A stretch of DNA of 64,000 bases from a virus, in IMG/VR virus record IMGVR_UViG_3300035696_000024, positions 1-64,000 of that record; one strand, given 5' to 3'. Positions 16,538 to 63,286 of this stretch are shown in pieces (position 1 is the stretch's first letter; the number at the start of each line of letters is the position of its first letter). A program made the translations under genes and the position numbers. Under the pieces are notes generated by a model. The model worked only from the letters and a program-made list of their open reading frames with translations. It searched no databases and had not been told where the DNA came from.

Positions 16538-17875
16538 ATGATTGGTAATTATAAAGACTTAATAAAAAAATTGCATCATGTACCTGTTGTTTTATGGGCG
16601 ATTCCATCCGATGAATTTCTTCATCCATGTGTCACAGATATTTCTGCTGTTTTTATAAAAGAATTGGTAAATGGTGACACCTATTGCATATCTTTTAATC
16701 ATCCTGATTTATTACCTATCGTAGATAAAAAAACCTTCATTGACGACATAAATGATTTTCGTGATAGAAAATGGGTGTTTGATAAAAAATCTTTCCTTCA
16801 GCTTTTACCTGTTAAAAAATTATTGGATTTTGATTTGTGGATGCATCTTGAAAAAGGACACACATTGGATAAATTGAGTTTGGAAACTACAGCACACAAA
16901 TTTGTTTACAGAACGAAAAAGGAATGTGGTGATTTAAACAAGGTTGTTCCATTGTTAAAACATAAGGAAATATTTGAAAAAATATGTAGTGTTGTTTTTG
17001 AAACGGAGAAAAATATATTGGATGAAGGTTATGAGAAGGAAAACGAAATTGTAATAGAAACTTTGGCAGACTTGGAATCAAATGGAATTTATGTCAATGC
17101 AGATTGTTTTTCAAAACATTTCAATGCAAAAATAAATCCTAATGGACTGGTGTATAGTAAATACAATGTCTATACCAGCACAGGTAGGCCCAGTAATCAT
17201 TTTGATGGTGTTAATTATGCTGCTTTGAATAAAGATGATGGGTCAAGGTCGTGTTTTGTTTCCCGTTATGGAAAAGATGGAATGATGGTATTGGTTGATT
17301 ATTCCGCTTTTCATCCAAGAATTATTTGCCGTATCACACACTTTCCGATGGATATCAATGAGGATATTTACAAATATTTGGGAGAAATGTATTTCCAGAG
17401 AAAAGTTACCGAATATGACATGGACGAAATCAAGAGCATAACAATGCGACAGTTATATGGCGGTGTGGAAGAAAAATATGAGAACATCAAATATTTTGGA
17501 AATTTGAAAGAATTTATAAACATGCATTGGGAAGAATTCAAGAGAAATGGATTCACACGAACGCCATTGTTTAGAAGGATAATCACCAATAAACATTTGA
17601 AAGATGCCAATCCTGCCAAATTGTTTAACTACATTCTTCAAGCCACTGAAACAGAAATAGCTTTGTCAGCGGTTAAAGTGGTCAATGACTATCTTAAAGA
17701 TAAAAAAACAAAAGCGGTGCTATACACGTATGATTCTTTGTTATTTGATTTTTACAAAGCTGATGGACAGAAAGTTCTTAATGACATTATGGAAATAATG
17801 ACTATGTGTAAGAGGTTTCCTATTAAGGTGTATAACGGTGAATCTTATAACTCAATGGTTCAAATCTATCCTTAA
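16538..17875 (+). CDS. compact divergent family A DNA polymerase
   Basis: 445 aa with TSTGRPS, motif A VDYSAFHPR, motif B KSITMRQLYG, NYILQATE and motif C YTYDSLLFD. Confidence 0.85.
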   Translation: MIGNYKDLIKKLHHVPVVLWAIPSDEFLHPCVTDISAVFIKELVNGDTYCISFNHPDLLPIVDKKTFIDDINDFRDRKWVFDKKSFLQLLPVKKLLDFDLWMHLEKGHTLDKLSLETTAHKFVYRTKKECGDLNKVVPLLKHKEIFEKICSVVFETEKNILDEGYEKENEIVIETLADLESNGIYVNADCFSKHFNAKINPNGLVYSKYNVYTSTGRPSNHFDGVNYAALNKDDGSRSCFVSRYGKDGMMVLVDYSAFHPRIICRITHFPMDINEDIYKYLGEMYFQRKVTEYDMDEIKSITMRQLYGGVEEKYENIKYFGNLKEFINMHWEEFKRNGFTRTPLFRRIITNKHLKDANPAKLFNYILQATETEIALSAVKVVNDYLKDKKTKAVLYTYDSLLFDFYKADGQKVLNDIMEIMTMCKRFPIKVYNGESYNSMVQIYP

Positions 17876-30979: not shown

Positions 30980-31360
30980 ATGATAATTGATGAAACATTA
31001 TTAAATGTAATTCCACCGTTGATAGCAGCGGTGCTGACATATATTGTCGCTAGTAAAAGGGCTCGTGCGCAACATGCGAAACTTATAGCGGACATTCAAT
31101 CACACGCCATAGAGCAAGTTCGTTTAATCGAAGAGAAAATGAGGGAAGAAATATGGGTGGAATTGCGAAAAGTTCAAAAAGAAAACGCCGAATTCAGAAA
31201 AGATATGGAAGCTCAACGCCTCGAAATTGATGATTTGAAAAAACAACTGGAGGCAGCAACAAACCTTCGCGTAACTCTTACTGAACAGGTTCATTCATTG
31301 GAGAGATTAGTAGAAACCTATAAAACAAGAATTGTTGAATTGGAAAAAAAGGAAAAATAA
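30980..31360 (+). CDS. membrane-anchored coiled-coil protein (holin-like candidate)
   Basis: N-terminal TM helix and a long heptad coiled coil. TATTTATA at 30946-30953. Confidence 0.6.
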   Translation: MIIDETLLNVIPPLIAAVLTYIVASKRARAQHAKLIADIQSHAIEQVRLIEEKMREEIWVELRKVQKENAEFRKDMEAQRLEIDDLKKQLEAATNLRVTLTEQVHSLERLVETYKTRIVELEKKEK

Positions 31361-31371
31361 TATACTGTGTT

Positions 31372-31707
31372 ATGAGTTTGATGGAGAATATTCGGAAAAT
31401 GTTTTACCGACCAAAAGTGTTTTTAGTTGATGAAAATGCAAAGGGATGTAAGCATCAAGCGGATGCTATTCGTGCAATGAATGTGGATGTGGATACTTTC
31501 ACGGATTGCAACAAATTATTGTATGTTCTTCATTCCTGTAAAACTCAAAAATATGCGGCGGGTATTATTTGTGAAAATGGTAGCAAATATAGGCCGCAAG
31601 TTTTATCTAATTTTATAAAGGATATAGACCCAAAAATTCAACTCATTATTTATAAAAATGGAGAAGAATTAAAAGAAGATGCAACTAAAATATTGTCTTT
31701 GACATAA
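31372..31707 (+). CDS. hypothetical protein with degenerate receiver (CheY-like) pattern
   Basis: KVFLVDEN...AIRAMNVDVDTFTD...LL...IICE...IKDIDPKIQLIIY follows the beta/alpha pattern of receiver domains. Confidence 0.5.
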   Translation: MSLMENIRKMFYRPKVFLVDENAKGCKHQADAIRAMNVDVDTFTDCNKLLYVLHSCKTQKYAAGIICENGSKYRPQVLSNFIKDIDPKIQLIIYKNGEELKEDATKILSLT

Positions 31708-31727
31708 TCCGCCCATTCAGTTATAAT
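31699..31727 (+). promoter_or_regulatory. consensus sigma70 promoter, probably leaderless
   Basis: TTGACA-17nt-TATAAT ending 8 nt before the ATG at 31736. Confidence 0.8.
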
Positions 31728-31735
31728 CATTTCGT

Positions 31736-32515
31736 ATGTCGGAAGAAAAGTATTTTGACGCTGAAAAAGTAGTTGTCAGAAAAATAGATAAGGCTGTTGC
31801 AGAAGAAATGATTGTAAAATATCACTATTCTCATAAATGGTCTTTGTGTCAGGTTGCATATGGTGTTTTTTACATTACTGATAAGCAATGCAAATTTTTC
31901 AATGCGGTGGAAGAAAAACTTATCGGTTGTATTGTGTTTGGTCAACCTGTCGGACGTTCTGCGGCTGAATCTGTTTCAAAATTAATAAACGTTTATGAAG
32001 TTTTTGAACTTACCAGATTGTTTATTCATGATGGATATGGAAAGAATATTGAAAGTTATTCAATAGCAAAATCTTTGGAACTTGTAAGGAGAGATTTTCC
32101 ACAAATTAAAGCAATCATTTCCTATGCAGATGGTGAACAGGGTCATAAAGGAACAATATATCAAGCATGTAATTTTTATTACCAAGGAAATTCATCCTTA
32201 GCTTTGATGCCAAATTATTCTGTTTCCTTGGTGGGTCCGCCGTATCAGTGGATACATTCTAGAACAATTTCATCAACATACGGGTCACATAACGTGGAAC
32301 ATTTAAAGAAAAAAATAGGTCATACATTTTGGCGGAAAAAGGAGTCTTCAAAACATAGATATGTTTTTTTGTTGGGTAGTAAAACAGAAAGAAGAAAGAT
32401 ACTAAAAAACCTTAAGCATCCCTTCGAATCAATCTACCCGAAAGATACAAGTCATACGGATGAAATAGAGGAAATTACGGTGGATACTCCGACAGAAAAT
32501 CAGTTCTTTGGGTGA
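31736..32515 (+). CDS. Mom-family GNAT-fold DNA adenine modification protein
   Basis: IVKYHYSH, LIGCIVFG.P, FELTRLFI, KNIESYSIAKSL, AIISYADGEQGHKGTIYQACNFYYQG and KHRYVFLL. Confidence 0.8.
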   Translation: MSEEKYFDAEKVVVRKIDKAVAEEMIVKYHYSHKWSLCQVAYGVFYITDKQCKFFNAVEEKLIGCIVFGQPVGRSAAESVSKLINVYEVFELTRLFIHDGYGKNIESYSIAKSLELVRRDFPQIKAIISYADGEQGHKGTIYQACNFYYQGNSSLALMPNYSVSLVGPPYQWIHSRTISSTYGSHNVEHLKKKIGHTFWRKKESSKHRYVFLLGSKTERRKILKNLKHPFESIYPKDTSHTDEIEEITVDTPTENQFFG

Positions 32516-32536
32516 AATATCCATATTTATAGTAAT

Positions 32537-34111
32537 ATGGAGCACAGTTTATTAATAGACAGAGAAAGAGTAATACAAGGTAGTGGTATTAGTGGAAGAA
32601 TAATTGTCGCACTGCGTTTCACAGAATTAGAGGCTACCAGTTTTGAACAGGCCATCGAGAATTACAATAAAACATCACCCAATAAAAATTTGGTGGTCGC
32701 ATTTATTGATTCTCATACAGGTGAAACCATTAAAGGGCCAAAATATGATACTACAACTCAATCTTTGGGTAAATATAACATAAAAAAATTTTTAGAGCCG
32801 GGAGTAAAGCAACAAGCACCAATAGAACCATCACAACACGAACCGAGAGATAGATTTGATGAATGGGGAAAGAAACCAAGATATAGAAAGCAAATTGTAA
32901 TTAAGAAAAAATTATTAGGCGGATATTCGATTATTGCTTATGGTGCAGACGGTAAGATAGAAAATAATGGGTTATTACAGTTTATTGTAGATACACCTCG
33001 AAAAGCTGCAGTAACAGCTAATCATTTACATGATAGATACAAGTGGCCTATTGTAGATTTAACCAGAGAAACAATTGCGAAGATGTCAGTATGTAGGTTG
33101 TGTGCTGATGAATTTAATAACGACGAAGAGTTATTCATTCATTTACACAAAGTTCATCAAGTGCCAGATAATGAAATATTAAATAACGGTTTTTGGGTGA
33201 ATATAAATAAACTCATAAGTAATCATCAATATCTTCGTCAACATTTGCCAAATAAAATAAAACCTATGAATGAAATCAATAAATTCAGAAATATGATCAG
33301 AGAATGTATCTCTGAAATCAAAAAAGAAAATGACCCAAAGACACGTCTCAAGGAATCTCTTCGTAATGTGGTCAAAGATGTTTTAAGTGAAATGAGCACT
33401 CTTACGACCAGCGGTAAACCAGACCAAACCAAGGATGAAAAAGAAGCATCGGACAAGCAATATTTTAAAGACCCCAATCCAAGACTTAACAAAACCAATG
33501 TCAAACAGCAAACTGAACTGGACACACTTGTTAAAGGCATTGACCCTTCATGGGAAGCCTATTGGGATGACCATCAACAATTGATAGTCCGAGCGCAAAA
33601 TCTTTTGTACATTCGAATTTGTCAAAGATTTGAAAATAGTTACGATGTGGATGCTATGGTTAAATTAGTTGATAGAGTTCGTGCCATTGCCCTTACATGG
33701 GACCAAGTCAAAGCATTTGTTAAAGCAAATTTCAGTGATTTGAAGAACAAGACCATTCCCGATAAGCAAAGGGAAAAAGCTATCAATAATTACGATGACA
33801 AGGAAGTAATTAAGAAGGATGCTGGACCGGAAAAGGCCAAAGTTGGTGTCAGATATCAAGACCCAAAACACGGCACAATTAAAGACACCAAGAAAGATGA
33901 CAAAGACTATAATGAACCCCAAACAAAGAGGGATGAGGATATGCCTGACCAACCGATGAAACAGGTCACAGAACCCGGTAAAGACCCTGAATCTAAAAAT
34001 AAGAACATCGAAAAAACGCCCAAGGTCAAACCACCTAAACATAAGAATGACAAGACGTTAAGGGTAAAAGATAAGAAGACTTCCAAATTTGTCTTAAAGA
34101 AGAGAGCCTAA
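32537..34111 (+). CDS. multi-module late protein with C2H2 zinc finger and Lys/Asp-rich tail
   Basis: 524 aa. TATTTATA at 32524-32531, CRLC..F.....L..H....H finger, and IRECISE and VKDVLSE motifs. Confidence 0.7.
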   Translation: MEHSLLIDRERVIQGSGISGRIIVALRFTELEATSFEQAIENYNKTSPNKNLVVAFIDSHTGETIKGPKYDTTTQSLGKYNIKKFLEPGVKQQAPIEPSQHEPRDRFDEWGKKPRYRKQIVIKKKLLGGYSIIAYGADGKIENNGLLQFIVDTPRKAAVTANHLHDRYKWPIVDLTRETIAKMSVCRLCADEFNNDEELFIHLHKVHQVPDNEILNNGFWVNINKLISNHQYLRQHLPNKIKPMNEINKFRNMIRECISEIKKENDPKTRLKESLRNVVKDVLSEMSTLTTSGKPDQTKDEKEASDKQYFKDPNPRLNKTNVKQQTELDTLVKGIDPSWEAYWDDHQQLIVRAQNLLYIRICQRFENSYDVDAMVKLVDRVRAIALTWDQVKAFVKANFSDLKNKTIPDKQREKAINNYDDKEVIKKDAGPEKAKVGVRYQDPKHGTIKDTKKDDKDYNEPQTKRDEDMPDQPMKQVTEPGKDPESKNKNIEKTPKVKPPKHKNDKTLRVKDKKTSKFVLKKRA

Positions 34112-34137
34112 TACATACCCCATTTATTGCTTCACAA

Positions 34138-34165
34138 GAAACCGTGCTTTTGCACGGTTTTATTT
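34138..34165 (+). terminator. rho-independent terminator
   Basis: AAACCGTGC-TTTT-GCACGGTTT followed by TATTT. Confidence 0.75.
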
Positions 34166-34169
34166 GCGG

Positions 34170-34330
34170 TTGACTTTGTTATGTGGTTGTGGTAAACTTA
34201 TGTATGAATAAAAAAATACAGAACATATTGCCGTGGATAACGTTATGAATATCGCTAAACCATCAATAAACTTTTTTTATTCAAAGAAGTATAAATAGAT
34301 ATTGACAAAACACGCTTTTTACAGTACAGT
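34170..34330 (+). promoter_or_regulatory. two sigma70-type promoter candidates
   Basis: TTGACT-17-TAAACT (34170-34198) and TTGACA-17-TACAGT (34302-34330) upstream of 34382. Confidence 0.5.
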
Positions 34331-34381
34331 GCTTAACTTATAAGGCTCTGAATATGAGAGAGCAAACAAGAAGGTATAATT

Positions 34382-34783
34382 ATGAGTATTAGAAAAACAC
34401 AGCGAAAAAATAAAACACGACAGGTCATAGCATGGCCATCACACGATTCATATTTCACCATTGACAGTTTGGTGGAAACAAATCCTCACATGCTTACTTC
34501 GTCAGGTTCGGATATAACTCTTAGAGTTCGTCTGAACAAAGCTATAAGTGATGAAAATTTGGTGGCAATAGTTGGGCAAAAAAATTGTGGAAAAGGAAGA
34601 CCACAGTTGGTTTTTGCTATGCGACCCGTCAAACAGACTGCCATTGATAAAGCGAAGGCTGATGGTATTTCCTTGGATATGCCAAAAATCATGACAGTAA
34701 TGGAAATTTCCACGCAGTCATCACCAACTTCCATTGTAACACCTGTTACAAACATAACATCGAATCAAGGCGTCAACGCTTAA
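34382..34783 (+). CDS. putative winged-helix DNA-binding protein
   Basis: FTIDSL...ITLRVRLNKAI..NLVAIVG...KGRPQLVF matches a wHTH wing pattern. Confidence 0.55.
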   Translation: MSIRKTQRKNKTRQVIAWPSHDSYFTIDSLVETNPHMLTSSGSDITLRVRLNKAISDENLVAIVGQKNCGKGRPQLVFAMRPVKQTAIDKAKADGISLDMPKIMTVMEISTQSSPTSIVTPVTNITSNQGVNA

Positions 34784-34818
34784 TAAAACAACCACCGATA
34801 TCTTAAAATATCATACAT

Positions 34819-35013
34819 ATGAAAAGGAAAAAAGTTGCGAAACGAAAATCGCGTCTAATAGACTTACATATGTATGGTATTTTTGATGTCAAGAAAAACA
34901 CAATTATCAAAATTAGTCTTGACCCCGCAGAGATACAAATGGAAGTTGCTCTTTCGGGTGGATTAAATGAAAATCTTATCGAATGTGAGTTTGATGTTAA
35001 GTTAGCGATTTAA
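34819..35013 (+). CDS. hypothetical protein
   Basis: 64-aa ORF. Confidence 0.45.
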   Translation: MKRKKVAKRKSRLIDLHMYGIFDVKKNTIIKISLDPAEIQMEVALSGGLNENLIECEFDVKLAI

Positions 35014-35515
35014 CACCCTTTCCCTTGTAACTCATAAAAAGTTTGAAAGACTTTTTGACTGCAACATCTTCCTTGTAGTAGAAGATGGTTGCTAAATTAT
35101 TAATTTTGTTTAATACCGCTTGAATTTTTTGATTTGACCCATAAGATAAAGGCATGTCAAATCTATCGTCAAATAACACGGACAAAACAGTGCTAATTTT
35201 GAAATGATGATAGAAGAGTTTGTCTTTTTCCATATAATGATATCTTAACGGCGCTTTTCGATGTTTTCCTTCCCCCTTAATTTCTATATATTTTTCAGGT
35301 CCCTTTTCAAAAAACATACGAGAATTCAATTCGTAGTAGAATACAAAAGAGTTTGGAGGAAGTTTGACCGATTTTATAATAGCTATGGAACCTATTATAA
35401 GAGGCATGTCCATTTTTATATCAAATAGAGCATATTCTGTATCACTGATTCTAAAACAATGGTAATACTTTGGAATTTTTATAGCTTCTTTATCATTGAC
35501 TTTGTTCTCAGGCAT
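34997..35515 (-). CDS. hypothetical protein with internal duplication
   Basis: Two copies of Y.H.F.IS.....LFD...DMPL..GS. TACTTATA element upstream on the minus strand. Confidence 0.65.
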   Translation of the reverse strand: MPENKVNDKEAIKIPKYYHCFRISDTEYALFDIKMDMPLIIGSIAIIKSVKLPPNSFVFYYELNSRMFFEKGPEKYIEIKGEGKHRKAPLRYHYMEKDKLFYHHFKISTVLSVLFDDRFDMPLSYGSNQKIQAVLNKINNLATIFYYKEDVAVKKSFKLFMSYKGKGVKSLT

Positions 35516-35523
35516 AATACACT
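35496..35523 (+). promoter_or_regulatory. sigma70-type promoter, probably leaderless
   Basis: TTGACT-16nt-TACACT ending 6 nt before the ATG at 35530. Confidence 0.5.
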
Positions 35524-35529
35524 ATAAGT

Positions 35530-36846
35530 ATGAGTGGATTAGAATTTATTGCGGGTGAAGTCTGTCCAGATGAAGCCAAAAATCATGCATTGGAAGAAAA
35601 GAGAAAGCTGAATGAGACGGCTGGAAAATATGCTAAAAATGATGCGTTTAAGTCCACTTGGGATGGAGAGGTTTTTGATTTCGAAGAAAATAAGAAAAAA
35701 TTGATTGATGATTTGAATTGGTTGAAATCTTTGTCGGTGGAAGAGTTTACCTTCCGTAAAAAATATGAAGAAATTCAACTTATAAACAAAGATATAAGAC
35801 AATTTGACACCAGAGCAAAAGCTTGTATTTGGGAACCCACCGATATCAATGATGAAGAATTGACTATCAAGGAAATAGAATCCATTCAACCGAGAGTGGT
35901 TGTTGTGGATTTATCACAAGAAAGATTATGGACTGCATTAAGAATTTATTGCAGCACAGCCGAATATAATCAGGCTCCGGGTAGATTCATAAAGTTTCTA
36001 ATGATAGATGACGTATCAAAAAAAATATTGGGTATAGCTTCGATTGCCAGCGACGTTATTTCCATTGCTGCCAGAGATAAATTCATAGGTTGGACATTAG
36101 AGGATAAATTAAAGCATAAAATGTTAAAACATTCAGCCATAGGGACTACCATAGTTCCCACACAACCGTTTGGAAGTAATTTTTTGGGTGGTAAACTTAT
36201 AGCAACGTTAGTGACTTCTGGTGTTGTTAGAAATGAATGGGAAGACCAAACCAGAGGCGTATCAAACAGTTGTAAATTAGTTGGTATGACTACAACAAGT
36301 CTTTATGGTGGATTTTCCATGTATAACAGTTTGAAATGGTGGAAGTCCGTAGGAATGTCAAAAGGTAAAATTCCAATAAAGCCTTATGAAGAAGCCTACG
36401 GCGATTGGCATGGTTGGTTAAAACAGCACATGAAAGATGAATATGACGAAGCCATGACGCAGAAAGAAGGCATCAGTGGTCCCGTTACAGGCGCAAAAAT
36501 GAGGGTATTATCAATGATATTCAAAGCTTGTCAAATAAAACAATCTGAATATTGTCATGGATATGAACGCGGTGTTTACTATTCTTGTTTTTATGAAAAT
36601 ACCAAAGAGTTTCTTTGTAGAAAAATTACAGAAGATAAATTGGTAATGAAGTCACTATTTAAAGATGATACAAAAGCTATCATGGATTGGTGGCGTCCAA
36701 AAGCTATAGAAAGATACAAAAGATTAAAATCAGAAGGACGATTGAATCCAGATAAATTGTTTTATAGTGATATGAATGAACGAGACAATCCGGGCATGAC
36801 CTACAAAAAAGCTAAAGACTTATTCTTTAATGATGTAGGACGATAA
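35530..36846 (+). CDS. DUF4338 / Druantia DruA-like protein (long form)
   Basis: PGRFIKFL, LGIASIAS, RDKFIGW, PTQPFGSNFLGGKLIA, TTTSLYGGFSMYNSL and VGMSKG. Confidence 0.75.
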   Translation: MSGLEFIAGEVCPDEAKNHALEEKRKLNETAGKYAKNDAFKSTWDGEVFDFEENKKKLIDDLNWLKSLSVEEFTFRKKYEEIQLINKDIRQFDTRAKACIWEPTDINDEELTIKEIESIQPRVVVVDLSQERLWTALRIYCSTAEYNQAPGRFIKFLMIDDVSKKILGIASIASDVISIAARDKFIGWTLEDKLKHKMLKHSAIGTTIVPTQPFGSNFLGGKLIATLVTSGVVRNEWEDQTRGVSNSCKLVGMTTTSLYGGFSMYNSLKWWKSVGMSKGKIPIKPYEEAYGDWHGWLKQHMKDEYDEAMTQKEGISGPVTGAKMRVLSMIFKACQIKQSEYCHGYERGVYYSCFYENTKEFLCRKITEDKLVMKSLFKDDTKAIMDWWRPKAIERYKRLKSEGRLNPDKLFYSDMNERDNPGMTYKKAKDLFFNDVGR

Positions 36847-36857
36847 TAAGATTAGAC

Positions 36858-37028
36858 ATGGGAAGAACGTATAGAAAAAACGACAGATGGAAGAAAGATC
36901 GAAGAGATCAAAACTTTAAAAAAAGTAAAAAATTCAAAGACTTCAAACGTGGTGGTTTTACACCGCCTAAACCAGTTTTACCAGAAGTGGTGGAACCAAA
37001 AGATTCTATAGATGATTCTGATTCTTAA
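36858..37028 (+). CDS. small basic protein (56 aa, below the ORF-track cutoff)
   Basis: MGRTYRKNDRWKKDRRDQNFKKSKKFKDFKRGGFTPPKPVLPEVVEPKDSIDDSDS fills the gap between flanking genes. Confidence 0.55.
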   Translation: MGRTYRKNDRWKKDRRDQNFKKSKKFKDFKRGGFTPPKPVLPEVVEPKDSIDDSDS

Positions 37029-37287
37029 AATTTTGGCATGGTTTTTCAGTTATTTTACGATATATCTTTTATTTCGATGGGTGTTCAAAATATCGAAATC
37101 TCTCAACGAAATAAACAAGGATATCAAACGCATCAATACCAATATAAATTCTTTACATCGTAATCAGATGGTGTTATCATCCTCCATTAAAGAATTGTAT
37201 AGGGAATTGAAAAAACATGACAAGACTTTCAGACAAAGACAAGTCAGAGTTGACGGAACCAAAAAAGAGGGGCCGGAAGAAACTTGA
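37012..37287 (+). CDS. membrane-anchored coiled-coil hypothetical protein
   Basis: N-terminal hydrophobic helix followed by heptad repeats. Confidence 0.5.
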   Translation: MILILKILAWFFSYFTIYLLFRWVFKISKSLNEINKDIKRINTNINSLHRNQMVLSSSIKELYRELKKHDKTFRQRQVRVDGTKKEGPEET

Positions 37288-37765
37288 AAATCCAACGGTA
37301 AAAGGTATAGGTTTATTCGACCATGTTAAGCACATTAGGATAACTCAAGACCCTGATTATTTTAAGAATTTGACGGAACTTGATAAGAAGTCATTTAATC
37401 ATTTTATGATACTCAAAGCGCTGAGTATGAATCCTGCGCTTTTAGAAGATGTCTCCACTCTGTTCAGGTATTTTGATAAAATTCCATCCCCACAATTTTA
37501 TAAACTTCTTATTGGTTTGATTCCGCCAGACCATCCAAAGAAATTTTATCCTTGGGTCAAAGCAAAGAAAAGCCCATTTAGTAAAAAACTTATTGAATTG
37601 ATTTCAACATATTTTGAGATTCCTCAAAGAGAAGCTACGGAGTATGCAACGTTATTGTTCTTGACTAATAATGGAAAAAAAGAATTGGAAGATATTTGCA
37701 AAGTCTATGGGTTGTCAGACAAGGAAATTGAATTCACCATGAAAGGTAATGATGATGAAGAATAA
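37217..37765 (+). CDS. clamp loader small subunit (T4 gp62-like)
   Basis: LFDHVKHI, SFNHFMILKALSMN, QFYKLL..LIP, YPWVKAKK and ELISTYFEIPQREATEY. Confidence 0.7.
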   Translation: MTRLSDKDKSELTEPKKRGRKKLENPTVKGIGLFDHVKHIRITQDPDYFKNLTELDKKSFNHFMILKALSMNPALLEDVSTLFRYFDKIPSPQFYKLLIGLIPPDHPKKFYPWVKAKKSPFSKKLIELISTYFEIPQREATEYATLLFLTNNGKKELEDICKVYGLSDKEIEFTMKGNDDEE

Positions 37766-38162
37766 ACCATTGGCGCCCGATACATCGTCAGTATTTGTGG
37801 TAAAAGATTCTGGTCAAAGACAGGAGTTTGTAACGGGAGCTCAAAGAGATACCCAAGAAGGAAAAGGAAGATTTGATCTTCTTCCTGTTCATGCTATCAC
37901 CAGACTTGCTCAACATTTTGAAAATGGGGCCAAAAAATACAATGATAATAATTGGAGAAAGGGAATTCCATTGAATCGTTATTTAGATTCTGCGTGTCGT
38001 CATTTGTTTAAATTTATGGATGGCGAAAGAGATGAAGACCATGCAATAGCTGCTGCGTGGAATATTCTTTGCCTTGTGGAAACAGAACATATGATTAATC
38101 AAGGTATTCTTCCAAAAGAATTGGACACTCTTAGAAAAGCGCCGGAACCAAAAAAGGATTAA
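37749..38162 (+). CDS. dATP/dGTP diphosphohydrolase domain protein (DUF5664)
   Basis: GAQRDTQEGKGRFDLLP, GAKKYNDNNWRKG, YLDSACRHL and EDHAIAAAWNILCL. Confidence 0.8.
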   Translation: MMMKNKPLAPDTSSVFVVKDSGQRQEFVTGAQRDTQEGKGRFDLLPVHAITRLAQHFENGAKKYNDNNWRKGIPLNRYLDSACRHLFKFMDGERDEDHAIAAAWNILCLVETEHMINQGILPKELDTLRKAPEPKKD

Positions 38163-38203
38163 AATATTTTTTAGTTCTTGATAGACAGTATTTATGGAGA
38201 GAT

Positions 38204-38956
38204 ATGTCTATTGCTATGTCCTTTTTTGATATTGAAATAAAAACCAGTTCATCTGTTTATTTGGCGGAATGTTCATCGCCAGCACAAAACAAAATATTCA
38301 GAGACACTATTAATAATTTCCATAGTTATGTTAAATATACAGATTCGCCAACACGAAATCTTAGATGGTTGGTTTATGAAACCGTTTCAGGAAATCAAAT
38401 AGGTGCAATAGGATTATCTTCCGCTACAATCGCTGTAGCCGTTAGAGACAAATTTATAGGTTGGGACAATCCGACCAAAATAAAAAATCTGTGTCATTTA
38501 GCAAATAATTCCCGATTTTGTCTGGCTCAACCAAGAATTTCCATAAAAAATGCAGCATCATCAACTCTCAAGCAACTTCGCATAGTGGGTGCTAAGCGAT
38601 GGAAGGAAAAATATGGTGATGACCTTGTTTTATTGGAAACGTTCGTTCAGCCTGAAAGAGACGAAGAATACAATAATTATAAACTACGATGTGGCGCGTG
38701 TTACAAAGCCGACAATTGGATATTCGTGGGCGAAACTCAAGGCAATCATATCCGTAAAACACCTATGCGTCTTTGGGCGAAAGAAGATGGTGAAAGAGGT
38801 AGATTGGCTAGGGAAGACCCGGAAGAGTGTTTAAAGAGGTATGCTGGATATTTGGGAGAACATTCAGGTTCAGGTTATAATGTTACCAAAGTGGCTAAAA
38901 AAATTATGTTTGTAAAGCCCCTAGTCAAAGATTGGAAGGAGAAACTGATACAATGA
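38204..38956 (+). CDS. DUF4338 / DruA-like protein (short form)
   Basis: FHSYV, RNLRWLV, RDKFIGW, ANNSRFCL, KNAASSTL, WKEKYG..LVLLETFV and GACYKADNWIFVGETQG. Confidence 0.8.
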   Translation: MSIAMSFFDIEIKTSSSVYLAECSSPAQNKIFRDTINNFHSYVKYTDSPTRNLRWLVYETVSGNQIGAIGLSSATIAVAVRDKFIGWDNPTKIKNLCHLANNSRFCLAQPRISIKNAASSTLKQLRIVGAKRWKEKYGDDLVLLETFVQPERDEEYNNYKLRCGACYKADNWIFVGETQGNHIRKTPMRLWAKEDGERGRLAREDPEECLKRYAGYLGEHSGSGYNVTKVAKKIMFVKPLVKDWKEKLIQ

Positions 38957-39831
38957 AAATTTTATTATTTGGCAGCAACGGATATATTGGTTCTGAATTT
39001 GTTAGTCAACTTCTTCAGTTAACCAATATCAAACTTATAAGATTGTTACCTTCAAGACATGCTGATGGTGGTAGCTATCTATTCAAAGAGTTGGATGGTC
39101 TTATAAAAGGAATTAAGCCTTCTGTTATCATCAATTGCGCAGCTTACGTTGGTGGTAACTCCATAGTAAATTGTGAAAATCATAAAGACCAAGCTATTCA
39201 GTCAAATGTTATCTTTCCACGGATGTTGGGAGAAATTTGTCAGGAAAGAAAAATCATTTTTGGTCATTTGTCATCAGGATGTGTTTTTAATGGGTATCCT
39301 ACTGGTGGATATGAAGAGGATGATGTAAGAAATATGACGTTTGATTCCAAATGCAGTTTTTACACTGGTACTAAAGCAATGGCTGAAGATTGCTTAAATG
39401 ACTTGGAAAAGAAATATATTTGGAGAATCAGAATACCATTTGATGAAATTGATCATCCTAGAAATTATTTGACCAAATTGATGCAGTTTGATAAATTAGT
39501 CGTAGCAAGTAATTCTATTTCCAATAGAAAAGAATTGGTGACTGCATGCATAGAATGTATTATGAAAGCAGTTCCATTTGGAATTTATCACGTCACAAAT
39601 CCCGGTGGAATTCGCACCGATGAAATAACAGCAATGATGAGAAATATTTTGAAAATTGACAAGGATTTTCAATATTTTGAAAGCATCGAAGCATTTGATA
39701 AAATAAGTACAACACCAAGGTCAAATACCATTTTAAATACGGAGAAATTGGGTAGGGCAGGAATTGTGATGACACCTGTTCATGAATCTGTGGAAAAGGC
39801 CCTTAAACAGTGGAAATGGGCTACCGCGTAA
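38953..39831 (+). CDS. NDP-4-keto-sugar reductase/epimerase (RmlD / NRS-ER-like SDR)
   Basis: GSNGYIG, INCAAY, LSSGCVF, YTGTK and WRIRIPF. Confidence 0.85.
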   Translation: MKILLFGSNGYIGSEFVSQLLQLTNIKLIRLLPSRHADGGSYLFKELDGLIKGIKPSVIINCAAYVGGNSIVNCENHKDQAIQSNVIFPRMLGEICQERKIIFGHLSSGCVFNGYPTGGYEEDDVRNMTFDSKCSFYTGTKAMAEDCLNDLEKKYIWRIRIPFDEIDHPRNYLTKLMQFDKLVVASNSISNRKELVTACIECIMKAVPFGIYHVTNPGGIRTDEITAMMRNILKIDKDFQYFESIEAFDKISTTPRSNTILNTEKLGRAGIVMTPVHESVEKALKQWKWATA

Positions 39832-40108
39832 TCGAAGCAATCATCTGATTGTTAAGATAAAATTGCATACGGTTATCATTTGATTTTGACAACAACAAAT
39901 ACGAAAAATTTTGTGCCCTTGATGCAAAAGCTACATAATGTTGTTTGCATTGATTTAATTTTGCTTGTTTTGCCTGTGGCGGGTCACATGCGCACATGCG
40001 AACCAAAATATCCATACAAGTAACCAAATTTTGAGCTTCTGGACATATTCCTACAATTCCATTGCCAACCAAAAAATGATATAAATCGTTTGGACTATTT
40101 ATGTTCAT
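39821..40108 (-). CDS. hypothetical protein (Cys-containing)
   Basis: 95 aa, last gene of the minus-strand run, converging on the RmlD-like gene. Confidence 0.55.
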   Translation of the reverse strand: MNINSPNDLYHFLVGNGIVGICPEAQNLVTCMDILVRMCACDPPQAKQAKLNQCKQHYVAFASRAQNFSYLLLSKSNDNRMQFYLNNQMIASITR

Positions 40109-40509: not shown

Positions 40510-41844
40510 TTATGACTTATGAAGATTGTTCATTAAAGGATTTATAAGTTGGTTTTGATAATATGGGTCATCTAAGTGTATTAGATGAGGTTCATAGGTA
40601 TTTAATTTTTTTATTTCAATGTTGAAAATATTAAATTTCATATTTCCTATTTCTCCACTGTCACTTAATACATCTGATAAAATATATAAAAAATTCATAT
40701 TTTCTATAGATTTCTTAGATAATTCTTCTATGCCATATTTTTTTGAATCCAATGGGCCTGTGAAATCAGAAAATTTAAATTTTACTATAATATCATTTGT
40801 TTGTTCTTCGTTTATATTTTTTATTTTTTTATTTAAATCAAAGTCCGTATTTTTTTGTTCTGAATTTATATATTTTTTTACAATATATTGCGGCAAATCT
40901 GTGTAAAGATTGGAAGATAAAGATTCAATTAATGGCAATGTATGTATAATAAACCATTCATTCAATTCTTCTTTTATGTTTAATATATCTAGTTCATTTT
41001 TTAAGAAAATATTGTCATCATCAAAATTTGTAACGATACCTATATCATATTTTTTACTAATTATGGGATACGAAAATGAATTATTTTTTGGAGACGTACC
41101 CCATTTTCTGAGGAAATTTTTAAAAGATTTAAGTTGATGAATTTTGAACTCTTGAGTATCTACATTAACTCTTCCTGTCGTCCATCTATGTGACCTACTT
41201 GCCCAATGATAACAAAAACTATCGCGACTTTGAATAATATTGTAGCCTGCTAAACACAATCTGTTTATAAAATCTGAATCTTCTGCAGGAAATGGTCTGA
41301 ATAAAGGGTCCATGCCTCCCATTTCAATATATTCATCACGATACATCGCCCAAGGGGCAAAAAAGCCCTTAGTAATTTGATTTTTAAATTCTAATTCTTT
41401 CTCTTCAACAAATTTTAAAAACTCTTTCTGCTTAAATTCTTCAATATATATTCCAAAATTTTGTAATATTTTTGCATCATCTGATGGATAGAGGGGAGGT
41501 TCTATTCTAGTTCCACTTACAATCGCTTTGGGTTTTATGTGTTTTAGAATATTTGATATAAAATTTGGAGTACATACCATATCTGAATGGAAGATACATA
41601 TTATAGGTTTGGTAGCAAGTTTTGCACCTATATTATATGTTATTGTGTGACCTAATTGTTTTTCTGTATTATACCATTTTATAAGATTATCATCATTTAG
41701 TGATTCCATCCATTGTATAGTTCCATCACTACTAGCATCATCCAACATTACTATTTCTATAGTAGGATTATATCGTCTGATACTTTTATATGCTAGTTTA
41801 GTGTATTGTAGGGTGTTTCTTGTAGTTAAAATAATACTTATCAT
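40510..41844 (-). CDS. glycosyltransferase family 2
   Basis: ISIILTTRN, LDDASSDGT, FHSDM, GGMDPLF..AEDSD and YHWASRS. Confidence 0.88.
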   Translation of the reverse strand: MISIILTTRNTLQYTKLAYKSIRRYNPTIEIVMLDDASSDGTIQWMESLNDDNLIKWYNTEKQLGHTITYNIGAKLATKPIICIFHSDMVCTPNFISNILKHIKPKAIVSGTRIEPPLYPSDDAKILQNFGIYIEEFKQKEFLKFVEEKELEFKNQITKGFFAPWAMYRDEYIEMGGMDPLFRPFPAEDSDFINRLCLAGYNIIQSRDSFCYHWASRSHRWTTGRVNVDTQEFKIHQLKSFKNFLRKWGTSPKNNSFSYPIISKKYDIGIVTNFDDDNIFLKNELDILNIKEELNEWFIIHTLPLIESLSSNLYTDLPQYIVKKYINSEQKNTDFDLNKKIKNINEEQTNDIIVKFKFSDFTGPLDSKKYGIEELSKKSIENMNFLYILSDVLSDSGEIGNMKFNIFNIEIKKLNTYEPHLIHLDDPYYQNQLINPLMNNLHKS

Positions 41845-42569
41845 AAAATTTCAATGGATTTTGATTTTCCATTATAGATAATAACTTTGCAAATTAAAAG
41901 TTTTTTTATTTCATTTAATCTTCTTATATCTTTTTCTCTTAAATTCCCATTTATATCATAATGATGGGGTTCGTTATATTCAAATATGGTATTTTTTCCT
42001 TTGTCATAACCATCCAACCAATAATTTAATTCTTCAATGTAATATTCACCGCCATTTTCTGCATGTTGAAAATTATATCCATTTTGTTTGTTATACGTGT
42101 CTATAAACTTACAAGCAATAGGATTATAAAATGGTTTGTTATCATAAATACCTAATTTTTTCTTTCTTTCTATAGCTAATTTTCTCCATAATTTTATTGT
42201 TTCTGTAGAATGTTTTCTACCTGTATTAACTTTAATAGATAATTCCCCAAGTTTCTTTTTTGTTTCTTGTGAATGGTGCTTCCCATAAAACGGGTTTAGA
42301 TGTCCACTTTTACCATACATCGGATTATTTTTACCTACAAATAACGCAGATAGCTTTTTTCTAGTTTCATTTGATATTATTCTATTTTTTGCTATAAATG
42401 ATAATCGTGTTTTTTCTTTAGGATTATTAGCTCTGATTTTGGTTTTGCAACTTTTACATAAACTTTTGTTTTTCAAAGCTCGACACAAACCACTTCTATA
42501 AGAGTATTTTAGTCTTTTCCTGCATTTAGGACATTTTCTTATCCATTTATTATGTGTTGAGATTTGCAT
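41841..42569 (-). mobile_element. free-standing putative homing endonuclease with NUMOD3 repeats
   Basis: CPKC/CKSC, NPMYGK, NPFYGKHHSQETKKKL, GRKHSTET and a C-terminal WLDGYD..KNTIFEYNEPHH. Paralog of 13012..13755. Confidence 0.75.
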
Positions 42570-62740: not shown

Positions 62741-63286
62741 TTATTTTATTTTCTTAGGATAGGGTCTGTGTGGTAATTTATTTCTGAGAGCTTTTAAATT
62801 GCCACGAAGAATATAAGCATATTTGTGAAATCCTTGTTTGGTTTTACCAAGATAAATTGCGTTGGTTGCTTGATAAACTGTTCCAATGTGCCCGGCTTTC
62901 TCATTAGCATTAGTTACCACCACTTTTACATTGGGTTCATCCTGTTTTAACATTCTTAATGTCTGCGCAATAACATAAGATTCCAAATTAGGAATACCAA
63001 CGTCGGCAATATACAATCTTTTCAAATCCAATACTTCTTTTGAGATTGCTTCCGGATTTAGAAATTTTGAAATGGAAGGCATGGCAGACCCGTATATAGC
63101 CATTCCAATTACCATATTTCCCTGATGTGGGCGTTTGTATCTTACAACATATACTCTTTTAATGTGAGATGGAAGGGAACGCAAATAATGTTTTTTCGCA
63201 AGTTGTATTATTGCTTCTTTTGTGGCAGGAATAACTTCTATTTCATCCTGCAATCTCTCAATAATTATTTGTTTTTTAACTCCCAT
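62741..63286 (-). CDS. second Mom-family GNAT-fold protein
   Basis: KKHYLRS, IGMAIYG, LDLKRLYI, PNLESYVIAQTL, VVTNANEKAGHIGTVYQATNAIYLG and HKYAYIL. Confidence 0.75.
   Translation of the reverse strand: MGVKKQIIIERLQDEIEVIPATKEAIIQLAKKHYLRSLPSHIKRVYVVRYKRPHQGNMVIGMAIYGSAMPSISKFLNPEAISKEVLDLKRLYIADVGIPNLESYVIAQTLRMLKQDEPNVKVVVTNANEKAGHIGTVYQATNAIYLGKTKQGFHKYAYILRGNLKALRNKLPHRPYPKKIK

What the first reader, a model, noticed from the sequence alone, without database searches (positions are those of the whole stretch)
31699..38956. Candidate novel phage DNA-modification system: four Mom/DUF4338 GNAT paralogs plus nucleotide-pool enzymes
Seen: four separate genes (31736..32515, 35530..36846, 38204..38956, 62741..63286) share GNAT-like architecture. 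Three carry a G-x-x-Y-x-A-x-N-(F/W/A)-x-x-x-G motif (GTIYQACNFYYQG, GACYKADNWIFVG, GTVYQATNAIYLG), and the two DUF4338 proteins share the identical peptide RDKFIGW. A DUF5664 dATP/dGTP diphosphohydrolase and the clamp-loader subunit sit between the two DUF4338 genes. Known: Mu Mom makes N6-carbamoylmethyladenine, DUF4338 is the uncharacterised DruA component of Druantia, and dATP/dGTP diphosphohydrolases often accompany modified-base pathways. Inferred: this phage uses a multi-enzyme, replication-coupled purine acylation or hypermodification system, which would also suggest that DruA is a Mom-like base-modifying enzyme.
Basis: partly seen in the sequence, partly recalled or inferred. Interest (0 to 1): 0.8.

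Follow-up and report, generated by a model that had tools for sequence, protein, structure and literature searches.

The report
Mom- and DruA-type enzyme genes in phage
An uncultured marine giant phage carries five related acyltransferase-fold genes, some like phage Mu's DNA-modifying enzyme Mom and some like the bacterial defence protein DruA, and one of them links the two families, which suggests, without proof, that the phage chemically decorates its DNA in several ways.

Summary
A fifth gene, a third Mom, lies outside the window.

The two DUF4338 proteins have a GNAT fold, and Mu Mom (8bv8) is their top solved match. The match is clear for the 250-aa protein (Foldseek E 1.7e-7; Z 14.8 over 178 residues). 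For the 438-aa protein it is only a tie with other GNATs.

A profile comparison links the 250-aa family to Mom along the whole length (E 3.9e-6; 25 shuffled controls no better than 0.031). This family keeps Mom's R111, S124, Y159 and W181. The 438-aa protein is a full-length DruA homologue. Like 3 of 3 true Druantia DruA proteins, it lacks R111 and S124.

The MazZ-like gene is not a conserved neighbour (4 of 54 loci) and no PurZ is present. "Replication-coupled" and "one multi-enzyme system" remain inference. DNA modification itself is untested.

The scan has noted DruA/Mom-like phage genes before on other DNA. The private tRNA-Gly mimic seen there was not found here.

Verdict: a new variant of a known kind, of moderate interest.

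The parts
31736..32515 (+). MomA (P0001, 259 aa): full-length Mom-family GNAT. Mu Mom R111/S124/D149/Y159/W181 correspond to R94/S107/D132/Y142/W172. Mu R151 is Glu here. It ends in FFG.
   Evidence: Pfam Mom 1.2e-43 over positions 2-198 of 202. PHROG 1384 at 4.9e-44. phmmer against 8bv8 gives 5.8e-9. Residue map; C-terminal tails.
35530..36846 (+). DruA-long (P0002, 438 aa): full-length homologue of Druantia DruA. It has a GNAT core (about residues 115-380) with helical ends. At Mom's R111/S124 positions it has A203/G221.
   Evidence: Pfam DruA 1.9e-26. PADLOC DruA1 4.1e-22. hhalign against 3 true DruA proteins: 99.2%, E 2.2e-19, 344 columns. AF2 pLDDT 84.9. Mom is the top match, but Foldseek gives only E 0.019 and Z 9.5 ties with other GNATs. 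Residues.
37217..37765 (+). Clamp-loader small-subunit-like gene (gp62-like). It is a conserved neighbour of the DruA genes and is not shown to work with them.
   Evidence: PHROG 225 at 1e-11; Pfam Phage_clamp_A at 0.0013, below the cut-off. It lies beside DruA-short in 27 of 54 related loci. The same adjacency is seen in Synechococcus phage S-SCSM2R.
37749..38162 (+). MazZ-like dATP/dGTP diphosphohydrolase N-terminal domain protein (137 aa). It is a neighbour only and probably not part of the set.
   Evidence: Pfam PF18909 3.1e-23. It is at this place in 4 of 54 related loci. No PurZ-type gene in 0 of 5 related records.
38204..38956 (+). DruA-short (P0003, 250 aa): bridge between DruA and Mom. 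The N-terminal half is DruA-like (RDKFIGW). The C-terminal half is Mom-like (Tyr motif, helical insertion with W191). Mom H58/R111/N121/S124/Y159/N163/W181 correspond to H40/R104/N116/S119/Y167/N171/W191.
   Evidence: Pfam DruA 3.5e-20. PHROG Mom-like 0.0021 on residues 162-248. AF2 pLDDT 87.6. 8bv8 is the top match: Foldseek 1.7e-7, next family 1.1e-4; Z 14.8 over 178 aligned against 13.4 over 134. hhalign against the Mom family: 87.2%, E 3.9e-6, 202 columns, with a null maximum score of 21.6 against 46.7 observed. Residues.
62741..63286 (-). Mom-short (P0004, 181 aa): truncated Mom-family protein. It ends before the helix-turn-helix-like insertion. D149 is Asn and R151 is Lys. It sits at the end of the glycan gene island.
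   Evidence: Pfam Mom 7.2e-24, but only over positions 9-138 of 202. BLASTP against P0001 gives 8e-21. It is conserved as a 183-aa frame in the complete relative G013. Residues.

Best explanation
The window comes from an uncultured marine T4-like giant phage. Its complete relative is 365 kb. The phage carries a family of paralogous acyltransferase-fold (GNAT) genes of the Mom/DruA clade, placed inside its DNA-replication gene modules.

Shown:
- There are three Mom-family genes and two DruA-family genes.
- All belong to one homologous clade.
- The 250-aa DruA-short protein bridges the two families and keeps Mom's R111, S124, Y159 and the Trp of the DNA-facing helical insertion.
- The 438-aa protein is a full-length DruA homologue with a different active-site make-up.

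Inferred:
- MomA, the third Mom and DruA-short each act alone, like Mu Mom. Each would transfer an acyl or aminoacyl group onto a base in the phage's double-stranded DNA. The paralogues would differ in donor, target base or sequence context, and the result would be protection from host restriction.
- DruA-long does related but chemically distinct work on nucleic acid.
- The MazZ-like pyrophosphatase and the clamp-loader gene are neighbours, not pathway members.
For: - Family hits over the cut-offs.
- Mom (8bv8) is the best solved match of the P0003 model in two programs, with more residues aligned than for any other GNAT. The BFVD list puts a phage Mom second, at 4.3e-8.
- Whole-length profile match of DruA-short to Mom, E 3.9e-6, well above 25 shuffled or reversed controls.
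- In the P0003 family, 39 of 39 sequences keep R104, N116, Y167, N171 and W191, and position 119 is S in 33 and T in 6. R111, S124 and the insertion are essential in Mu Mom (PMC13219725, section 13).
- Links to DNA: relatives of the DruA-like domain are fused to a UDG domain (35.3 bits, over the cut-off). Structural neighbours in BFVD are named as endonuclease fusions. DUF4338 is reported fused to DndF (PMC10853773, passage).
- The order MomA, DruA-long, DruA-short is kept in related phages. DruA-short is directly followed by a Mom gene in L026 and L034.
- The complete relative G013 has 3 Mom and 3 DruA matches.
Against: - No modified base, substrate or donor was tested.
- Mu Mom's essential R151 is Glu, Ile or Lys in the three Mom paralogues and variable in DruA-short. 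D149 is Gln or variable in DruA-short.
- DruA-long and 3 of 3 true DruA proteins lack R111 and S124. DruA-long does not match Mom by profile (E 0.17), and its structural match to Mom ties with other GNATs.
- With narrow alignments, the DruA-short to Mom profile match was not significant (E 0.14). The A1 profile did not find Mom among PDB sequences.
- DruA genes occur without Mom in complete records G014 and G017, so the genes are not obligate partners.
- No tRNA gene lies in this 90-kb record.
- GNATs modify many kinds of substrate, and a shared fold shows no function.
Confidence: 0.5

Rival explanations
1. The paralogues are GNATs that act on something other than DNA. Examples are aminoacyl-tRNA (like TacT toxins), host or phage proteins, or sugar-nucleotide intermediates of the adjacent glycan island. 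The likeness to Mom then reflects shared ancestry only.
For: - Hundreds of ordinary GNATs score only slightly below Mom for both models.
- Mom's R151 is not kept in any paralogue.
- P0004 lies at the end of a 22-kb sugar gene island and lacks the DNA-facing insertion.
- PMC13219725 (discussion passage) states that Mom's substrates could not be predicted from structure.
Against: - P0001 and the third Mom score 150-183 bits on the Mom model.
- DruA-short keeps the Mom-specific insertion with its Trp and aligns over 178 residues, against about 134-150 for other GNATs.
- The fusions of the DruA-like domain are with DNA-acting domains.
- The genes sit in replication modules, not in the sugar island, except for P0004.
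Confidence: 0.25
2. The phage DruA-long protein is a counter-defence mimic. As a copy of the host defence protein DruA, it would jam or misdirect Druantia-type systems rather than work as an enzyme for the phage's own DNA.
For: - It is collinear with true DruA over 344 columns.
- It lies outside any DruB-DruE context.
- It lacks Mom's R111 and S124.
- That phages copy defence proteins is general knowledge (recalled).
Against: - The family has many invariant polar residues (R182, D183, Q212, K222, T254-S257, Y265), as expected of an active enzyme.
- It is widespread in marine T4-like phages at a fixed place beside the clamp-loader gene, which suggests a core phage function.
- Nothing is known about Druantia in the hosts.
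Confidence: 0.08
3. One reading: one coupled multi-enzyme pathway. The MazZ-like pyrophosphatase would shape the purine pool, and the four GNATs would act together at the replication fork.
For: - The genes lie among replication genes.
- The clamp-loader neighbour is conserved in 27 of 54 loci.
- FF-containing termini are shared with the phage polymerase.
Against: - The MazZ-like gene is at this place in only 4 of 54 loci.
- PurZ is found in 0 of 5 records.
- DruA occurs without Mom in 2 of 3 complete relatives.
- Mu Mom needs no partner and acts after replication (PMC13219725, title, abstract and heading of section 6).
Confidence: 0.1

Closest known systems
Mom of bacteriophage Mu (Pfam PF25680; PDB 8bv8), a Gly-tRNA(Gly)-dependent N6-adenine modifier of dsDNA (PMC13219725)
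   Same: - GNAT fold with a helical insertion after the Tyr motif.
- R111, N121-x-x-S124, Y159 and W181 are kept in MomA and DruA-short.
- It is the top solved structural match of both DruA-type models.
   Different: - R151, essential in Mu, is not kept in any paralogue. D149 is not kept in DruA-short or P0004.
- There are five paralogues per genome here, against one in Mu.
- The genes sit in replication modules. No Com-like gene was looked for.
- Donor and product are unknown.
DruA of Druantia type I (Pfam PF14236/DUF4338; PADLOC DruA1)
   Same: - P0002 is collinear with three annotated DruA proteins, at 99.2% probability and E 2.2e-19.
- They share the R-D-K-x-I-G-W, L-G-G-K-L and T-T-S-S...Y-N motifs.
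- P0003 shares the N-terminal half (97.0%, E 1.1e-10).
   Different: - There are no DruB-DruE neighbours. The context is a phage replication module.
- The Pfam score is far lower than for a true DruA (93 bits against 271 bits).
- No NCBIfam hit.
- P0003 lacks DruA's N-terminal helical region and has Mom's catalytic residues instead of DruA's.
DruA-like or 'mom' genes of marine cyanomyophages and pelagimyophages (S-PRM1 and five others in the Phold preprint; S-SCSM2R ORF152 in PMC12801897; Pelagibacter phages Mosig and HTVC008M)
   Same: They are homologues of P0002 (25-32% identity, E from 7e-48 to 4e-8). The gene sits beside the clamp-loader small subunit gene.
   Different: - Those reports describe single genes, each named after one family only.
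- Here Mom-type and DruA-type genes coexist, and a bridging family is present.
- P0003 has no match in the 50,697 isolate phage records.
MazZ of Z-genome phages (dATP/dGTP diphosphohydrolase working with PurZ and DatZ; recalled)
   Same: The N-terminal domain family PF18909 matches at 3.1e-23.
   Different: - No adenylosuccinate-synthase-type PurZ in this record or in 4 relatives, including a complete one.
- The gene is not a conserved neighbour.

Membership tests
Mom (PF25680) | Matches the family model above the curated cut-off (27.1 bits) | tested here: met
   P0001 scores 149.6 bits, P0004 85 bits and the third Mom 183 bits. P0002 and P0003 do not match the Pfam Mom model. P0003 matches only PHROG 1384, at 0.0021.
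Mom (PF25680) | GNAT fold with the helix-turn-helix-like insertion (Mu residues ~175-209, essential; W181) | tested here: met
   - P0003: helices 188-217 lie between strands. W191 is invariant in 39 of 39 sequences. 178 residues align to 8bv8.
- P0001: Pfam coverage reaches position 198 of 202, and W172 aligns to W181. It was not modelled.
- P0004: not met. The protein ends at about model position 138.
Mom (PF25680) | Essential residues R111, S124 and R151 (PMC13219725, section 13) | tested here: inconclusive
   - R111 and S124 are kept in P0001 (R94, S107), P0004 (R90, S103) and P0003 (R104, S119).
- The third Mom has K77 at the R111 position.
- R151 is E134, K130, I117 and E151 in these four proteins.
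- P0002 has A203 and G221 at the R111 and S124 positions.
Mom (PF25680) | Uses Gly-tRNA(Gly) to modify N6 of adenine in dsDNA | not testable with these tools
   This needs biochemistry or nucleoside mass spectrometry.
DruA (PF14236 / PADLOC DruA1) | Matches the family models | tested here: met
   P0002: Pfam 93.4 bits and PADLOC 4.1e-22. P0003: Pfam 72.8 bits and PADLOC 1.4e-6. No NCBIfam model hits either protein at E <= 0.01.
DruA (PF14236 / PADLOC DruA1) | Full-length collinearity with DruA of true Druantia type I loci | tested here: met
   - P0002 family against 3 plasmid DruA proteins: 344 columns, E 2.2e-19.
- P0003 family: 231 columns, E 1.1e-10. It lacks the N-terminal region.
- The loci were checked to hold DruA, three further genes and a large DEAD/DEAH helicase gene.
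Druantia type I system | DruA encoded with DruB, DruC, DruD and the DruE helicase | tested here: not met
   The neighbours here are small ORFs, the clamp-loader subunit gene, the MazZ-like gene and an RmlD-like gene. No large helicase gene is adjacent.
Z-base (2-aminoadenine) pathway | MazZ together with PurZ (adenylosuccinate-synthase family) | tested here: not met
   PF00709 is found in 0 of 5 records, including the complete G013. The control found it in 14 of 14 genomes.

The most novel reading that the evidence does not exclude
Abundant marine giant phages use a whole toolkit of Mom/DruA-clade enzymes to put several different acyl or aminoacyl marks on their DNA. Each enzyme would have its own donor, possibly drawn from the roughly 50 phage-encoded tRNAs seen in complete relatives. 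Conserved FF tails might recruit the enzymes to the replisome. By extension, DruA of Druantia would be the self-marking enzyme of that defence system, writing a non-methyl adenine adduct. This would explain the 'm6A-like' signal reported for a system without a methylase (preprint 10.1101/2024.04.14.589459; abstract and discussion passages only).
Probability: 0.18. Interest if true: 0.85.

Novelty: new variant of a known kind. Interest (0 to 1): 0.55.

Why it matters
Mom is so far the only enzyme shown to modify DNA with an aminoacyl-tRNA donor. DruA is the unexplained first gene of a widespread defence system.

A phage family that carries both types side by side, plus a bridging protein with DruA's front half and Mom's catalytic back half, offers a concrete route to test two questions:
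- Do DruA-type proteins write marks on DNA?
- Which residues set donor and target choice in this clade?

It also corrects the record. The 'first cyanophage mom' (S-SCSM2R ORF152) is a DruA-family protein by Pfam.

If the enzymes are active, DNA of very abundant marine phages may carry unknown adducts. Such adducts would affect restriction, sequencing and the detection of methylation.

Tried and rejected
- **Narrow profile comparison.** A1 (37 sequences) against A2 (32 sequences) aligned only the 22-column Tyr motif (E 0.14, probability 0.4). It was superseded by broader non-redundant alignments.
- **A1 profile against PDB sequences.** It did not find Mom. The only hit was an unrelated one at E 0.4.
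- **DruA-long family against the Mom family.** E 0.17, inside the null range. The true DruA trio against Mom gave E 0.0038 and probability 8.8, too weak to count on its own.
- **Megablast of 31000-39900 and tblastn of P0003 against isolate phages.** No match.
- **Private tRNA-Gly mimic**, reported by earlier scan notes beside DruA genes in other phages. ARAGORN found 0 genes in the window, in the rest of the record and in 14 of the 15 related loci scanned. The other locus, L026, had one tRNA-Ala; the two tmRNA calls in L033 and L040 are not tRNAs. Rfam gave 0 matches at gathering score over the whole 90,208 bases and no tRNA match at E <= 10 in the window. So it is not detected here. A very atypical RNA could still be missed.
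- **Z-base pathway.** Rejected, because no PurZ is present.
- **Complex prediction.** I tested the probable sliding clamp (L058:11407-12156, alignment A4 of 5 rows) against the C-terminal 60 residues of MomA (alignment A2). The result was no verdict (score 0.19, mark 0.32). This is neither support nor evidence against binding. The identity of the clamp rests only on a language-model lead and on gene position.
- **NCBIfam.** No hit for any of the five GNATs.
- **First literature search.** It was too loose and gave nothing useful.
- **Literature coverage.** 'Druantia' plus 'GNAT' found 0 papers. 'DUF4338' found 4. 'DruA' plus 'Druantia' found 6, of which 5 were listed. In those searches and the passages I read, I found no paper stating that DruA is specifically Mom-like. 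The supplements of PMC13219725 (active homologues, residue conservation) were closed and may bear on the R151 question.


Full report
**What the window is.** The window is the first 64,000 bases of a 90,208-base IMG/VR virus record that CheckV rates 26% complete. A complete relative, G013, is 365,299 bases. The gene content is T4-like:
- tail tube and baseplate genes at 4-7.5 kb;
- PolA-like, gp32-like, endonuclease VII, RecA/UvsX-like, 5'-3' exonuclease and DnaB-like helicase genes at 16-28 kb;
- a ribonucleotide-reductase-sized ORF at 28.3-30.9 kb (not scanned against families);
- a 22-kb sugar and glycan gene island on the minus strand at 40-62 kb.

The nearest isolates by the DruA-long protein are Pelagibacter phages Mosig and HTVC008M and many Synechococcus myophages.

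**Checking the observation.** All four ORFs exist at the stated coordinates.
- Pfam gives Mom (PF25680) for the 259-aa and 181-aa proteins, and DruA (PF14236) for the 438-aa and 250-aa proteins. All four are above the cut-offs.
- PHROGs agrees. It also gives the C-terminal third of the 250-aa protein a weak Mom-like hit (0.0021).
- PADLOC's DruA1 models hit both DruA-type proteins.
- The quoted motifs can be read in the translations.
- Between the two DruA genes lie a gp62-like clamp-loader subunit gene (PHROG 225 at 1e-11; Pfam below the cut-off) and a 137-aa MazZ-like protein (PF18909, 3.1e-23).
- A search of the whole record found a third Mom gene outside the window at 73,824-74,621. The record therefore holds five such genes. 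The complete relative G013 has three Mom and three DruA matches.

**Are the DUF4338 proteins Mom-like? The 250-aa protein.**
- AlphaFold2 with 37 homologues gave a confident model (pLDDT 87.6).
- Foldseek against the PDB put the two chains of Mu Mom (8bv8) first, at E 1.7e-7 and 3.2e-6. The next family (FeeM) was at 1.1e-4.
- VIA-align gave Mom Z 14.8 (rmsd 4.7, 178 residues aligned). The next GNAT had Z 13.4 (rmsd 2.8, 134 aligned).
- Against viral models, a Salmonella phage Mom ranked second (4.3e-8). Many hits carried names such as 'endonuclease-like protein' or 'homing endonuclease'.

**Are the DUF4338 proteins Mom-like? The 438-aa protein.**
- The model had pLDDT 84.9.
- Mom was again first, but weakly. 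Foldseek gave E 0.019, with no match at E <= 0.001.
- VIA-align gave Z 9.5 over 172 residues. This ties with other GNATs at Z 9.0-9.2 over about 150 residues.

So both proteins have a GNAT fold. A specific closeness to Mom is clear for the short protein only.

**Sequence-level tests.**
- Pairwise BLASTP between MomA and DruA-short is not significant.
- A first profile comparison with narrow alignments found only the 22-column Tyr motif (E 0.14).
- I then built broader non-redundant alignments: 39 DruA-short, 38 DruA-long and 38 Mom sequences. The Mom set included Mu Mom and Mom genes from related loci.
- With these, hhalign aligned DruA-short to Mom over 202 columns covering nearly both whole proteins (probability 87.2%, E 3.9e-6, score 46.7).
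- Twenty-five controls with a reversed or column-shuffled Mom alignment reached at most score 21.6 and E 0.031.
- DruA-short against DruA-long gave 98.5% and E 3.8e-15. DruA-long against Mom was not significant (E 0.17).

The short family is therefore the link between the two Pfam families.

**Catalytic residues.** The 2026 Mom paper shows the following (PMC13219725; I read the abstract, sections 13 and 38, and found passages):
- Mom takes glycine from Gly-tRNA(Gly) and puts it on N6 of adenine in dsDNA.
- R111, S124 and R151 are essential.
- Mutating H58, Y59, W48, Y159 or W181 cripples the enzyme.
- A helix-turn-helix-like insertion (~175-209) is essential.

I fetched Mu Mom from NC_000929. 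Its numbering fits the paper. I then mapped these residues through the alignments:

| Protein | Residues kept | Residues changed |
|---|---|---|
| MomA | R94, S107, D132, Y142, W172 | Glu at the R151 position |
| Third Mom | (not listed separately) | K at R111, Ile at R151 |
| Mom-short | R and S | Asn at D149, Lys at R151; ends before the insertion |
| DruA-short family | H40, R104, N116, Y167, N171, W191 in 39 of 39; position 119 is S in 33 and T in 6 | D149 and R151 positions vary |
| DruA-long | (none of these) | C141, A203 and G221 at the H58, R111 and S124 positions |

**What true DruA looks like.** A tblastn search of plasmids found 5 records, 3 of them annotated as DruA. The three loci each hold DruA, three further genes and a very large DEAD/DEAH helicase gene, that is, a Druantia type I layout.
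- Their DruA proteins align with the DruA-long family over 344 columns (99.2%, E 2.2e-19).
- They align with DruA-short over 231 columns (97.0%, E 1.1e-10).
- They align only weakly with Mom (E 0.0038, probability 8.8%).
- All three have Val at the R111 position and Gly/Lys around the S124 position. They keep the Tyr.

So the phage's 438-aa protein is a true DruA-type protein. DruA proper shares fold and ancestry with Mom but not its essential Arg/Ser pair.

**Is it one system? Co-occurrence.**
- Among 20 related virus records searched, DruA matched in 19 and Mom in 13, of which 12 were over the cut-off. One further record was not held.
- Of three complete records, DruA matched in 3 and Mom in 1.

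**Is it one system? Synteny.** In the 54 loci fetched around DruA-short homologues, I counted homologues at tblastn E <= 1e-5 covering at least half the query:

| Homologue | Loci out of 54 |
|---|---|
| MomA | 12 |
| DruA-long | 17 |
| Clamp-loader subunit | 27 |
| MazZ-like protein | 4 |

Many loci are short and some are duplicates, so these are lower bounds. In L026 and L034 a Mom gene directly follows DruA-short, and L024 has three Mom genes in tandem. In Synechococcus phage S-SCSM2R the DruA-type gene overlaps the start of the clamp-loader small subunit gene, which is followed by regA.

From this I conclude:
- Mom-type and DruA-type genes travel together in this lineage but are not obligate partners.
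- The clamp-loader adjacency is old and conserved. It may be no more than conserved gene order.
- The MazZ-like gene is incidental. No PurZ-type gene was found in 0 of 5 records, against 14 of 14 control genomes, so a Z-base pathway is excluded.

**Other links to DNA.** All ten long relatives of DruA-long that I scanned carry the DruA domain. One has a UDG-superfamily domain above the cut-off and one has DUF3102. There are weaker ParB_N and GIY-YIG hits. The Aravind-lab paper lists a 'GNAT domain (annotated as DUF4338 in Pfam)' among the N-terminal fusions of DndF (PMC10853773, one passage).

**Replication coupling.**
- The third Mom gene lies between the two halves of a split family-B polymerase and a macro-domain gene.
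- After the macro-domain gene come a 250-aa probable sliding clamp and an AAA+ clamp-loader gene. The clamp call rests only on a language-model lead of 0.94-0.95 to PCNA/gp45 clusters.
- MomA homologues end in FFG in 74 of 121 sequences. The third Mom ends EFFG, and the polymerase C-half ends KFFDFGE. DruA-short and DruA-long often carry FF near a disordered end.
- This resembles clamp-binding tails of T4 proteins. That comparison is recalled, not checked.
- It is no more than a lead. My one complex prediction gave no verdict (see Tried and rejected).

**Leads from the scan's earlier notes.** A same-genome note lists the same five genes, and I confirmed them independently. Many follow-ups on other phages describe a shrunken tRNA-Gly right beside a DruA-type gene. 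I looked for it here and did not find it:
- There is no tRNA or tRNA-like match in the window or in the rest of the record.
- Relatives have 45-57 tRNA matches elsewhere in their genomes.
- In G013 a small cluster with two tRNA-Gly genes lies about 2.6 kb upstream of the third DruA gene. Both look canonical to the eye.

**Literature status.**
- DUF4338 being a GNAT is in print (PMC10853773).
- DruA-like proteins in six Synechococcus phages are noted in the Phold preprint (10.1101/2025.08.05.668817, passages).
- A cyanophage 'mom' said to be structurally similar to Mu Mom is described in PMC12801897 (passages). That gene is a homologue of DruA-long. It hits Pfam DruA (9.3e-9) and does not hit Pfam Mom.
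- A preprint reports an unexplained m6A-type signal for Druantia type I, which has no methylase domain (10.1101/2024.04.14.589459, abstract and discussion passages).
- In my searches I found no paper that states a specific DruA-Mom relationship, or that describes sets of Mom and DruA paralogues. The Mom paper's main text holds neither 'DUF' nor 'paralog'.

**Verdict.**
- This is a lineage-conserved set of Mom/DruA-clade GNAT genes.
- One of them is a real bridge between the families and is very likely an active Mom-like enzyme.
- The pool enzyme is a bystander.
- The DruA-type catalytic site differs from Mom's.
- DNA modification and replication coupling remain inference.

I rate it a new variant of a known kind, of moderate interest. 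The scan has found the broader theme before on other DNA.

Noticed in passing
G000:C1:73824-74621 (L058:9824-10621), outside the window: A third, full-length Mom-family gene (265 aa; Pfam 2.2e-55). It lies between the split family-B polymerase and a macro-domain gene, a probable sliding clamp and an AAA+ clamp loader. It has Lys at Mom's R111 position and ends in EFFG.
   Followed up: partly
L058:4782-6065 and L058:7070-8407: The family-B DNA polymerase is encoded in two separate ORFs, an exonuclease/N-terminal part and a C-terminal part, with two ORFs of 132 and 187 aa between them. The window also holds a small PolA-like gene at 16538-17875.
   Followed up: no
G013, G006 and G004 (related records); none in G000: Related giant-phage records hold 57, 45 and 47 tRNA matches, mostly in one block. 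The 90-kb record of this window holds none.
   Followed up: partly
L080:1315-2447 and L080:5027-6130 (G013:C1:127500-135500): In the complete relative, a separate cluster of six tRNA genes (Gly-GCC, Gly-UCC, Ile, Met and two Leu) lies about 2.6 kb upstream of the third DruA-type gene, on the opposite strand. Both tRNA-Gly genes look canonical.
   Followed up: partly
termini of P0001, P0365, P0002, P0003 and of the polymerase C-half (L058:7070-8407): Short FF-containing terminal peptides recur. MomA homologues end in FFG in 74 of 121 sequences, the third Mom ends EFFG and the polymerase ends KFFDFGE. DruA-short often begins with SFFD, and DruA-long often ends (F/Y)FxxVGR. These are possible clamp-binding tails. 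A complex prediction gave no verdict.
   Followed up: partly
window 38932-62455: A large sugar and glycan gene island. It holds an RmlD-like gene, several GT2 genes, GT11, a UDP-glucose dehydrogenase, a PfkB-type kinase, a TPP enzyme, a zinc alcohol dehydrogenase, a B12-binding radical SAM enzyme, DUF6492, a UDP-galactopyranose mutase and a C-methyltransferase.
   Followed up: partly
window 41841-42569 (-): An ORF with NUMOD3 motifs (homing-endonuclease-type DNA-binding motif; 2.7e-16) sits inside the glycan island.
   Followed up: no
L079:2845-3966 (Synechococcus phage S-SCSM2R ORF152): The gene published and annotated as 'methylcarbamoylase mom' hits Pfam DruA (9.3e-9) and not Pfam Mom. It lies directly before the clamp-loader small subunit gene and regA.
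   Followed up: yes
proteins P0402, P0374, P0382, P0502 (relatives of DruA-long): Longer relatives carry extra domains beside the DruA domain: UDG superfamily (1.5e-8), DUF3102, and weak ParB_N and GIY-YIG hits.
   Followed up: partly
L024:333-2584; L025:7615-9154; L026:10001-11450; L034:9989-11204: Related phages have two or three Mom genes in tandem, or a Mom gene directly after the DruA-short gene.
   Followed up: partly
L058:13615-14154: A nucleoside 2-deoxyribosyltransferase-like protein (Pfam 1.2e-9) lies just after the clamp-loader gene.
   Followed up: no
window 34107-34165: A G+C-rich hairpin followed by a T run lies right after the 524-aa ORF. It looks like an intrinsic terminator. 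It surfaced as a weak Rfam Leu-leader hit.
   Followed up: no
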